64,000 nt of DNA from the human T2T-CHM13v2.0 reference genome, Homo sapiens, in NCBI RefSeq assembly GCF_009914755.1, contig NC_060940.1. The stretch is one strand, 5' to 3'. Below, in pieces: positions 42,001 to 49,595 of this stretch. Position 1 is the stretch's first letter. Each line of letters opens with the position of its first letter. The translations under genes and the position numbers were made by a program. The notes beneath the pieces are model-generated. The model did not search any database. It saw only the letters and a program-made list of their open reading frames with translations, and was not told the DNA's origin.

Positions 42001-45000
42001 TAAACAGAGATAGCCCTTCAACAGGTGGAACTCAGCATATGCTGAGTCTGAAATGGAAATGATGAAGTTAGAGAACCATACAACAATGGTAATGATTTCA
42101 GAAACATGGTGTTGAGCAGAACAAAGCAGACACAAAAGAGTACCTATGGCATGGCATGCATCTGTATACGCGAAATTCCAGAATAAGCAAGCTAACCTAT
42201 GATAAGAAAGAGACTGGCTGGGAAGACTGAGAGTTCACTTTCTGGGGTGACATAATAGTGTAGATCTTGGCTGGGCACGGTGGTTCACGCCTGTAATCCC
42301 AACGCTTTGGGAGGCCGAGGCGGGCGGATCACCTGAGGTCAGGAGTTCAAAACCAGCCTGACCAACATGGAGAAACCCTATCTCTACTAAAAATACAAAA
42401 TTAGCTGGGAGTGGTGGCACATGTCTGTAATCCCAGCCACCCGGGAGGCTGAGGCAGGAGAATCGCTCAAACCTGGGAAGCAGAGGTTGCGGTGAGCTGA
42501 TATTGCCCCATTGCACTCCAGCCTGGGCAACAAGGGAGAAACTGTCTCAAAAAAATAAATAAATAAATAAAATAATGTAGATCTTGAAAGGGGGTCGGTT
42601 TATGCTGGTGTATGTACTTTCCAAAGTTAGTAAACTTACACTTAAGGTTATATATTTTGGCCAGGCGCGGTGGCTCACGCCTGTAATCCCAGCACTGGGA
42701 GGCTGAGGCAGGCGGATCACGAGGTCAAGAGATGGAGACTATCCTGGCGAACATGGTGAAACCCCGTCTCTACTAAAAACACAAAAATTAGCCAGGCGTG
42801 GTGGTCTACTAAAAATACAAAAATTAGCCAGGCGTTGTAATCTGAGCTACTCAGGAGGCTGAGGCAGGACAATTGCTTGAACCCCGGAAGCGGAGGTTGC
42901 AGTGAGCCGAGATCTTGCCACTGCACTCCAGCCTGGGCGACAGAGTGAGACTCTGTCTAAAAAAAAAAAAAAGTCATCAAACCAGATGACACAAATCAAA
43001 TGACATTTCACTTTGTTTTGGTCCACTTTGTTTGTTAGAGACAAGAGTGCAGCGGGGCCATCTCGGCTCACTGCAACGTCCAGCTCCTGGGCCCAAGCGA
43101 TCCTCCCACCTCAGCCTCTCCAGTAACTGGGATAACAGGTACGCACCACCAGGCCCGACTAATCTTTTTTGGAATTTTTTGTAGAGATGGGGTTTCGCCA
43201 TGATGCCCTGGCTAGTCTTCAACGCCTGGACTCAAGTGATCTGCCCACCTCGGCCCCCTAAAGTGCTGGGATTACAGGCCTGAGCTGTGTAATTTCATGC
43301 CGCGTGACACAGCCCAGTAAAAAGGAAGAAACCCCGAGGGTCCAGCGTCTACTCACACGGATGCACTGATGGCTGATAAATTCCAGCAGGAGCCCAAAGA
43401 GGAGCCAAAAGAGCATCCACCGCCCCCGCATGTCCTGGTCCTTTCAGGGCGCCCTGAGGCGTCCAGGACAGAGGTGGAGGTGGCTTAGGGCAGGGGGGAG
43501 GGAAGGGGACGGGGACCGGGCCCGGATCTGAGTTGGGGAGGGGGAGGGGAGGGGGAGGGGGAAGGGAAGGGGAGGGGAAGGGGGGAAGTAAGGGAAGGGA
43601 AAGGAGGAGAAGGGGGCTGTTGGGCACCTGGAGGAGGAGAAGAAGAAAGGGGTCTGGGAAAGGATCCGGTTCAAATTAAGTTCTCAAGCGCTGGTGGAAG
43701 GTTTAGCTACAGGTCACGGAGAAGATCAGGGAAGCAACAGGACACGCGGGGCAAGGGAGCGTGAGGCTTAGGAGCAATTAGAGGGAGACAAAAAGGTTCT
43801 GCTATCCGCCAAACCTTCTTCGGTCTGGGCCCTCCCTTAGCAAACCTGGGGCTTTATACTCCCTCTCCACCAATCCCTGATGACCCCGGTGGTGCCTCAC
43901 AATGGACAATGCCAAGTAGCGCCCGCATCATTCCAATGACCCCTCCCCCATCTCAGTCTCCCACACTCCTCGCAAGGACAGGTCCTCTCTGGAACCTTCA
44001 CAAACCTGATTTCTGGTCCTCCCCAACCAGCTCCCTGTCCCTGCTTCTGGGCGCTCCTTCCTTCCTGAGCTCCCAGGGTTCCTCAAGGTCACTTTTGGCG
44101 ACAAAACATAAAAAACAAATGATGGCAGGATGGCAGGAAGAACCTCATACCCAAGCAGAGTGCCAGGTTTTACAGCCTCCGCTCAGCCATTCATATCCTA
44201 AGCAACAAAACATCAGCAGGGTGCGGAAGGTCCCGATAGTAAACCATCTCCATCACATCCATGTAGCCATCCGTCCATCAACCTGTATCTCAGGAACAAA
44301 TGTAGATACATTCATTTTAAGCATGCATGGTACATTTACAAAAATTAACCTGACTTATTTTGTTCCAGCAAATCTCAATATATTTGAGAGCAATCAAATC
44401 ACACAGCATGTTTCTGATCATGTAACTGTGCTAGAAGTCAATGATTAAAAGCTAATTCAAAATTATTATTTGCTTGGAAATTCAAAGTGCCCTTATAAGA
44501 CATAAACATAAGAAAGAATCCAAAATGAAACAAGATTGCCTTTCAACTCAATGATAAGATCATAACATGGCAATAAAATGTCTCCCTCTGGCCTGGGAAT
44601 TCCTCTTTGTGGCACAAGGTTGTGTGATCTCAAATCCCCCCTAACCCACCTAGACATTTTAACATCCGAAACCGAGTGATGATGTCCTTATCTATAATCA
44701 TCTTACTGCCTGTGTGTGTGGACTTTAAATTCTGAACCCAAATGAGGGGGAGAAAACCAAGTTGACCTTCATGATTGACCTCTCAGGGATGTCCAAGGAA
44801 TCTGTGCATTTCAAGAAACAAAGTTCATCAGCTTCTCTCCTAAGGTATTTGCCCACAATACCCAGAGGGCTTGGCAGCATCATGTGTGATGGGTGGGGAG
44901 CTCCAAGCAGGTGGGCAGGACCCAGGGGTCTGGTGACCAGGACAGACCCCCACTGTCCATCACCTTTCCTGGCCCTGTCCTCAGTTAAACTTCCCACAGG

Positions 45001-49595: not shown

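What the first reader, a model, noticed from the sequence alone, without database searches (positions are those of the whole stretch)
43357..49595. Cassette of three interchangeable first coding exons feeding one acceptor
Seen: three ATG-initiated exons end in phase-0 GT donors and join exon 39865 in frame. They are ACSM1-derived MVKLSIV...YLRK (49595-49476), Cys-rich [21 protein letters not shown] (44213-44151) and [25 protein letters not shown] (43431-43357), which has a basic n-region and hydrophobic h-region. The last two are too short for the ORF track. Knowledge: these resemble N-termini used by different NPIP subfamilies. Inference: one locus could choose, by promoter, between signal-peptide and non-signal forms, changing topology around the hydrophobic exon and the compartment reached by the VNTR and basic tail.
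Basis: partly seen in the sequence, partly recalled or inferred. Interest (0 to 1): 0.78.

Follow-up and report, generated by a model that had tools for sequence, protein, structure and literature searches.

The report
Known alternative start exons of NPIPB11

Summary
Observation confirmed. On the minus strand, three ATG-initiated segments end at phase-0 GT donors and read in frame into exon 39865-39737: 49595-49476 (MVKL…, 40 codons), 44213-44151 (MFCC…, 21 codons) and 43431-43357 (MRGR…, 25 codons).

The bare pattern is not special. It occurs 114 times in this 12.6-kb 5' region. What makes these three real is their identity or near-identity to published NPIP start exons.

Dishuck et al., Cell Genomics 2025 (PMC12790995) already describe:
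- six translation start sites;
- MVKL as a co-opted ACSM1 exon 12;
- MFCC as the canonical start;
- MRVR as the ancestral start;

I confirmed the ACSM origin independently (ACSM2A residues 498-536, E 7.9e-11).

For NPIPB11 itself, both listed Iso-Seq models (2 of 2) and the single RefSeq transcript start with MVKL. Sister paralogs B4, B5 and B12/13 do use MFCC. None of the 11 rows I read for this subfamily uses the signal-type exon.

"Choice by promoter" is only partly right, because published cDNAs show exons B and C also spliced in as internal exons.

Verdict: already known, low interest.

The parts
49476..49595 (-). Exon A coding part (MVKL start, 40 codons). It lies within RefSeq exon 49476-49633. 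It is derived from an ACSM exon and is the only start documented for NPIPB11.
   Evidence: PDB ACSM2A residues 498-536, E 7.9e-11, 28 of 39 identical. B11_1 and B11_2 both start with MVKL. The paper calls it ACSM1 exon 12.
44151..44282 (-). Exon B. The MFCC start codon is at 44213 and the donor follows 44151. An acceptor (..GAGATACAG|GTTGATGG) sets the internal-exon start at 44282. The 69-nt leader holds 6 upstream ATGs.
   Evidence: By eye the exon matches the cDNAs of A9_2, B1_1 and B15_2, with 1 difference in the leader and 0 of 63 in the coding part.
43357..43453 (-). Exon C. The MRGR start codon is at 43431 and the donor follows 43357. An internal acceptor (..GCCTCAG|GGCGCC) lies at 43453. 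This is the B11 variant of the MRVR/MRLR signal-type exon.
   Evidence: By eye it has 7 of 75 nt differences from the A9_1 MRVR exon, all nonsynonymous. The h-region FWLLFGLLL has a KD 9-residue mean of 2.59.
43454..43634 (-). GC-rich, C-tract region upstream of exon C (GC up to 0.69, CpG obs/exp 0.39-0.54). It is homologous to the 5' ends of the MRLR-start cDNAs B14_1 and B10_2, and is therefore the candidate transcription start region.
   Evidence: By-eye match to the cDNA 5' ends.
44006..44091 (-). Exon D (86 nt, acceptor AAAAG|TGACC, donor CAG|GTTTGT). It encodes [28 protein letters not shown]. With the leader at 45038 it would form the MTLR start across the splice junction.
   Evidence: By-eye match to the B15_1, B14_2 and B10_1 cDNAs.
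45038..45092 (-). Non-coding leader exon ending ..GGCCTGA|GTGAGT. It matches the 5' end of the B15_2 cDNA.
   Evidence: By-eye match to B15_1 and B15_2.
39737..39865 (-). Common acceptor exon ([10 protein letters not shown]...YLW). The Pfam NPIP domain begins at its first residue.
   Evidence: PF06409 E 1.1e-15, profile positions 1-43.
49796..52504 (-). RefSeq first (non-coding) exon of NPIPB11. Its upstream flank (about 52596) is homologous to the 5' end of the B12/B13_1 cDNA.
   Evidence: Given annotation. One search compared by eye.
58900..59012 (-). Distal leader homologous to the 5' end of the MFCC-start cDNAs B4_1 and B12/13_2. It lies about 6.5 kb upstream of the RefSeq transcription start.
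   Evidence: By-eye match, with 2 differences in about 170 nt.

Best explanation
The region is the 5' module that every LCR16a/NPIP copy inherits. It is a series of alternative leader and start exons that all splice in phase 0 to the first exon of the NPIP domain (39865-39737). In order, they are:
- the ACSM-derived MVKL exon;
- a short non-coding leader;
- the MFCC exon;
- the 'TLRNPGSS' exon;
- the ancestral MRVR-type hydrophobic exon.

NPIPB11 keeps intact copies of all of them. It transcribes from its upstream NPIPB-type promoter and splices exon A directly to exon 39865, so the documented protein starts with MVKL. Exons B and C are then skipped intronic sequence at this copy. They are retained by recent common descent and perhaps used rarely.

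Shown here: the anatomy, the frames, the ACSM origin and the match to published start exons. Inferred: that B and C are unused or rare at B11.
For: - Frames and junctions.
- ACSM2A hit for exon A: E 7.9e-11.
- The Pfam NPIP profile starts at position 1 of the shared exon, so everything upstream is variable.
- Table mmc5, parts 3 and 4 (24 rows read): B11_1 (1077 aa) and B11_2 (951 aa) both start with MVKL. Of the 11 rows for the VNTR subfamily (B3, B4, B5, B11, B12/13 and look-alikes), 8 start with MVKL, 3 with MFCC and 0 with the signal-type exon.
- 'MRGR' occurs 0 times in the 6 supplementary files held.
- The annotated CDS in the window translates to 1077 aa, the same length as B11_1.
- Joining exon A to the internal forms of B, D or C gives a stop or a frameshift. 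They therefore cannot be added behind MVKL and must be skipped or used instead of it.
Against: [quoted passage not shown] Rare or tissue-restricted B11 isoforms would not appear in it.
- Nothing in the B11 sequence disables exons B or C. Start codons, donors, acceptors and upstream leaders are all intact.
- Close sisters B4, B5 and B12/13 do use MFCC.
- I read parts 3 and 4 of 5 of the table, not parts 1, 2 and 5, and I saw no figures.
Confidence: 0.8

Rival explanations
1. NPIPB11 also makes an MFCC-start isoform in some tissues, as its sisters do. Exon A would be skipped and exon B spliced in from an upstream leader, either the RefSeq first exon or the distal leader near 59012.
For: - The exon B coding sequence is 63 of 63 nt identical, by eye, to the used copies. 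Its acceptor and donor are the same as in the cDNAs of B1_1 and B15_2.
- B4_1, B5_2 and B12/13_2 start with MFCC.
- The distal leader seen at the 5' end of B4_1 is present in the window with 2 differences.
Against: - 0 of 2 listed B11 models and 0 of 1 RefSeq transcript use it (annotation).
- The exon B donor is the weakest of the three, rank 79 of 657 on the recalled matrix.
- Six upstream ATGs precede the MFCC ATG when the exon is used from its acceptor.
Confidence: 0.3
2. NPIPB11 uses the MRGR exon from its own GC-rich start region. This would give a signal-peptide or signal-anchor form of the long VNTR protein.
For: - The ATG, the GTGAGT donor (rank 20 of 657) and the upstream region homologous to the MRLR-cDNA 5' ends are all intact.
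- The peptide has a basic n-region (2 Arg) and a 12-residue hydrophobic stretch, with a KD 9-residue mean of 2.59.
- B6, B10, B14 and B15 use the homologous exon.
Against: - 0 of 11 rows read for the VNTR subfamily start this way, and 'MRGR' is absent from the supplements held.
- The paper dates use of this start to one human-specific clade (B6-B10, B14, B15) that does not include B11.
- CpG obs/exp is only 0.39-0.54, so this is not a CpG island.
- The peptide differs from the MRVR form at 7 of 25 residues, including Gly-to-Glu just after the hydrophobic stretch.
- I found no good small-residue -3/-1 cleavage site by eye. I could not run SignalP.
Confidence: 0.07
3. Exons B and C are chance open frames with chance GT dinucleotides.
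For: The pattern is common: 114 ATG/donor pairs in 12.6 kb.
Against: 21 of 21 and 18 of 25 residues match published start exons of other NPIP paralogs, with the same splice junctions to the same exon.
Confidence: 0.01

Closest known systems
NPIP alternative translation start sites (Dishuck et al., Cell Genomics 2025, PMC12790995)
   Same: The same three start exons (MVKL from ACSM1 exon 12, MFCC, and the MRVR/MRLR type) splice to the same VINTLADH exon. The paper also covers alternative promoters, the signal-peptide prediction and the transmembrane prediction for the VNTR subfamily.
   Different: For B11 the paper lists only MVKL models. The B11 copy of the signal-type exon reads MRGR… and is not among the listed starts.
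NPIPA / NPIPB gene models (Cantsilieris et al. 2020, PMC7419210; Bekpen et al. 2017, bioRxiv 10.1101/116087)
   Same: [quoted passage not shown] In the window the MFCC ATG lies 782 bp upstream of the MRGR ATG. [quoted passage not shown]
   Different: Bekpen et al. wrote that the NPIPB start codon emerged from non-coding repetitive DNA. The ACSM2A match and the 2025 paper show it to be a captured coding exon.
Genes with mutually exclusive alternative first coding exons feeding one common acceptor (general kind; recalled, no call)
   Same: Several 5' exons, each with its own donor, join one shared downstream exon in the same phase.
   Different: Here the alternatives arose by duplication and capture within a segmental-duplication core. 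Some also act as internal exons. Usage is partitioned mostly between paralogs rather than within one locus.

Membership tests
NPIP family start-exon set (Dishuck 2025) | MVKL exon: 40 aa, derived from an ACSM AMP-binding C-terminal exon | tested here: met
   ACSM2A residues 498-536, E 7.9e-11, 28 of 39 identical. Pfam AMP-binding_C gave no hit on the 40-mer alone. The PDB holds no ACSM1, so I could not separate ACSM1 from ACSM2A.
NPIP family start-exon set (Dishuck 2025) | MFCC exon: 21 aa, spliced to VINTLADH | tested here: met
   The window translation is identical, by eye, to the first 21 residues of A9_2, B1_1, B4_1, B5_2 and B12/13_2.
NPIP family start-exon set (Dishuck 2025) | MRVR/MRLR-type hydrophobic exon spliced to VINTLADH | tested here: met
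   The exon has the same length as the A9_1 MRVR exon (25 codons) and matches it in 18 of 25 residues, by eye. The same upstream sequence and GTGAGT donor are present.
NPIP family start-exon set (Dishuck 2025) | The exon is actually used as a start at this paralog | not testable with these tools
The published table lists MVKL only for B11, 2 of 2 models.
NPIP protein family (Pfam PF06409) | The downstream exon belongs to the NPIP domain | tested here: met
   E 1.1e-15, 58.4 bits against a cut-off of 27.5, profile positions 1-43.
Cleavable N-terminal signal peptide | Basic n-region followed by a hydrophobic h-region of 7-15 residues | tested here: met
   MRGR is followed by [12 protein letters not shown]. 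The KD 9-residue maximum is 2.59, at residues 8-16.
Cleavable N-terminal signal peptide | Polar c-region with small residues at -3/-1, and a positive call by a trained predictor | tested here: inconclusive
   The c-region reads [10 protein letters not shown] saw no clear small -3/-1 pair by eye. SignalP was not available. The published prediction concerns the MRLR variant.
Cleavable N-terminal signal peptide | ER targeting shown experimentally | not testable with these tools
   No experiment was found in the passages I read.

The most novel reading that the evidence does not exclude
NPIPB11 is one of only three NPIP copies fixed in copy number. It might use its private MRGR variant of the signal-type exon in some tissue. 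That would combine, in one protein, a signal or anchor sequence with the transmembrane segment and the long VNTR beta-helix. The published models keep these features in separate subfamilies. All 7 nucleotide differences from the MRVR form change the amino acid, which would then reflect selection rather than decay.
Probability: 0.06. Interest if true: 0.45.

Novelty: already known. Interest (0 to 1): 0.15.

Why it matters
NPIP is among the fastest-evolving gene families in humans and apes, and its function is unknown. Which N-terminus a paralog uses decides whether the protein is likely to enter the secretory pathway or stay in the nucleus or cytoplasm. That question is real, but it has already been posed and catalogued from long-read cDNA (Dishuck et al. 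2025).

What this window adds is small. The choice also depends on splicing, because adding B, D or C behind MVKL breaks the frame.

Tried and rejected
- **Extent of the ACSM-derived fragment.** I tried to find out how far it extends by sending three long minus-strand frames (45002-52505, -52504, -52503) to the PDB sequence search. I dropped the question, so I cannot say whether further ACSM exons lie nearby.
- **Pfam on the three short exons.** It found nothing. This is uninformative at 21-40 residues.
- **Literature search for 'NPIPB11'.** It returned 40 papers, of which 15 were listed. I opened passages of two. Neither deals with alternative first exons. One reports that NPIPB11 protein overexpression was unreliable.
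- **CpG-island test for a promoter at exon C.** The region is GC-rich but CpG obs/exp is only 0.39-0.54, so there is no island by the usual criterion.
- **PIPPI small ORF.** It is reported in the last NPIP intron. I listed ORFs there but could not identify it without its sequence.
- **Comparisons with the paper's cDNA and protein strings.** These were made by eye, not by an alignment program.

Full report
**1. Observation**

Reading the minus strand and translating by coordinates confirms the finding exactly.
- Exon A, 49595-49476: 40 codons (MVKL…YLRK), donor AAG|GTGAGT.
- Exon B, 44213-44151: 21 codons ([21 protein letters not shown]), donor TGG|GTATGA.
- Exon C, 43431-43357: 25 codons ([25 protein letters not shown]), donor CGT|GTGAGT.

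All three end in phase 0 and read through into exon 39865-39737 ([10 protein letters not shown]…), whose acceptor is …TTATTCCAG|GTT. The annotated CDS beginning with exon A translates without interruption to 1077 residues.

**2. Is it more than chance?**

The bare pattern is not. On the minus strand between 39866 and 52504, an ATG followed by at least 20 open codons and a phase-0 GT occurs 114 times, at 66 distinct donors. Eighteen of those donors score at least 3 bits on a donor matrix. I recalled that matrix from memory, so the scores are approximate. On it the three donors rank 1 (A), 79 (B) and 20 (C) of 657 GT sites.

What separates the three from the background is their match to known sequences.
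- Exon A matches human ACSM2A residues 498-536 at E 7.9e-11, with 28 of 39 residues identical.
- Exon B is identical in 21 of 21 residues to published NPIP protein starts.
- Exon C matches a published start in 18 of 25 residues. The B and C comparisons were made by eye.

The Pfam NPIP profile (PF06409) starts at its position 1 exactly at the first residue of the shared exon. The family's conserved domain therefore begins where the alternatives converge.

**3. What is known**

Dishuck et al. (Cell Genomics 2025, PMC12790995) cover this ground. I read passages, a search of the 6 supplementary files held, and parts 3 and 4 of 5 of table mmc5. [quoted passage not shown]
- 'six distinct translation start sites';
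- alternative promoters;
- MFCC as the canonical start (7 of 55 isoforms);
- MRVR as the probable ancestral start (11 NPIPA isoforms);
[quoted passage not shown] They also report a DeepTMHMM transmembrane segment for the VNTR subfamily, which includes B11.

Two earlier papers had already described parts of this (passages). Cantsilieris et al. [quoted passage not shown] In the window the MFCC ATG lies 782 bp upstream of the MRGR ATG. Bekpen et al. [quoted passage not shown] They stated that the NPIPB start arose from non-coding repetitive DNA. My ACSM2A hit agrees instead with the 2025 reading.

**4. What happens at NPIPB11 itself**

In the rows of mmc5 that I read (24 rows), B11_1 (1077 aa) and B11_2 (951 aa) both begin with MVKL. 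RefSeq has a single transcript, also MVKL (given annotation).

Across the 11 rows of the VNTR subfamily the starts are:

| Start | Rows | Models |
|---|---|---|
| MVKL | 8 | B3_1, B3_2, B345L1_1, B35L1_1, B5_1, B11_1, B11_2, B12/13_1 |
| MFCC | 3 | B4_1, B5_2, B12/13_2 |
| Signal-type exon | 0 | none |

The string 'MRGR' does not occur in the supplementary text held. [quoted passage not shown]

Single paralogs elsewhere do switch. B6 and B14 each have an MVKL model and an MRLR model.

**5. Anatomy beyond the finding**

The published cDNAs show that B and C are not only first exons.
- B1_1 and B15_2 enter exon B through an acceptor. In the window this is …GAGATACAG|GTTGATGG, giving an exon start at 44282.
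- B10_1 enters exon C through …CCTCAG|GGCGCC, giving an exon start at 43453.
- B10_2 and B14_1 instead start within the C-rich region upstream of exon C, which corresponds to about 43634 in the window.

Two further modules of the family are intact in B11.
- Leader 45092-45038 ends …GGCCTGA|GTGAGT.
- Exon D, 44091-44006, follows it. Joined as in B15_1, the two create an ATG across the junction and an in-frame MTLRNPGSS… start.

A distal leader near 59012-58900 matches the 5' end of the MFCC model B4_1, with 2 differences by eye.

Joining exon A to the internal form of B gives a stop after 9 more codons. Joining it to D gives an immediate stop, and joining it to C gives a frameshift. A transcript that contains MVKL must therefore skip all of them. 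The choice depends on splicing as well as on the promoter.

**6. The B11 copy of exon C**

By eye it differs from the A9_1 MRVR exon at 7 of 75 nucleotides, and all 7 are nonsynonymous: V3G, L6M, W13G, G17E, S23C, T24I and C25R. It has the ancestral length, whereas the MRLR form is 9 nt shorter.

It keeps two arginines at the N-terminus and a 12-residue hydrophobic stretch, with a Kyte-Doolittle 9-residue maximum of 2.59. I saw no convincing small-residue cleavage site and could not run SignalP.

The upstream region is GC-rich (up to 0.69) but has CpG obs/exp of 0.39-0.54, so it is not a CpG island.

The shared exons carry a hydrophobic stretch, [19 protein letters not shown], with a 19-residue mean of 2.06. 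This is consistent with the published transmembrane prediction.

**7. Conclusion**

The family-level interpretation is correct, but it was published in 2025. For this locus, only one of the three starts is documented. The promoter-only mechanism is too simple. The signal activity of the B11 variant and any change of topology remain untested.

Nothing in the sequence disables exons B or C. I put about 0.3 on occasional MFCC use at B11 and about 0.06-0.07 on use of MRGR.

Novelty: already known. Interest: low.

Noticed in passing
window 44282-44213 (-): When exon B is used from its acceptor, six upstream ATGs precede the MFCC start. The first opens a 21-codon uORF ([21 protein letters not shown]) whose TGA stop overlaps the MFCC ATG (TGATG). 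That arrangement can couple termination to re-initiation. If the exon B donor is not used, the MFCC frame stops one codon later (…AWV*).
   Followed up: partly
Splicing the leader (…CCTGA|) to exon D (|TGACC…) makes an ATG across the junction and an in-frame [30 protein letters not shown]-terminus, as in published model B15_1. B11 has R where B14 and B15 have S.
   Followed up: partly
window 59012-58900 (-): This sequence is nearly identical to the 5' end of the MFCC-start cDNA of NPIPB4 (B4_1). It lies about 6.5 kb upstream of the RefSeq NPIPB11 transcription start and is a possible distal promoter or leader. Bekpen et al. mention an Alu/ERV1 integration at the NPIPB promoter. I did not classify the repeat.
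   Followed up: partly
window 43431-43357 (-): All 7 nucleotide differences between the B11 exon C and the NPIPA9 MRVR exon change the amino acid, and none is synonymous. With so few sites this cannot separate selection from chance.
   Followed up: no
window 30079-31438 (last intron of NPIPB11): A 2025 NAR paper (PMC12596725, passages) places a 50-aa ER-stress microprotein ORF, PIPPI, in the last intron of most NPIP genes. I listed ATG ORFs of at least 40 aa in this intron but could not tell which, if any, is PIPPI.
   Followed up: no
window 49634-49795 (-): By eye, the published B11_1 cDNA runs continuously through what RefSeq annotates as the intron between exons 49796-52504 and 49476-49633. 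The 5' UTR structure of the MVKL transcript therefore varies, while the start codon does not.
   Followed up: no
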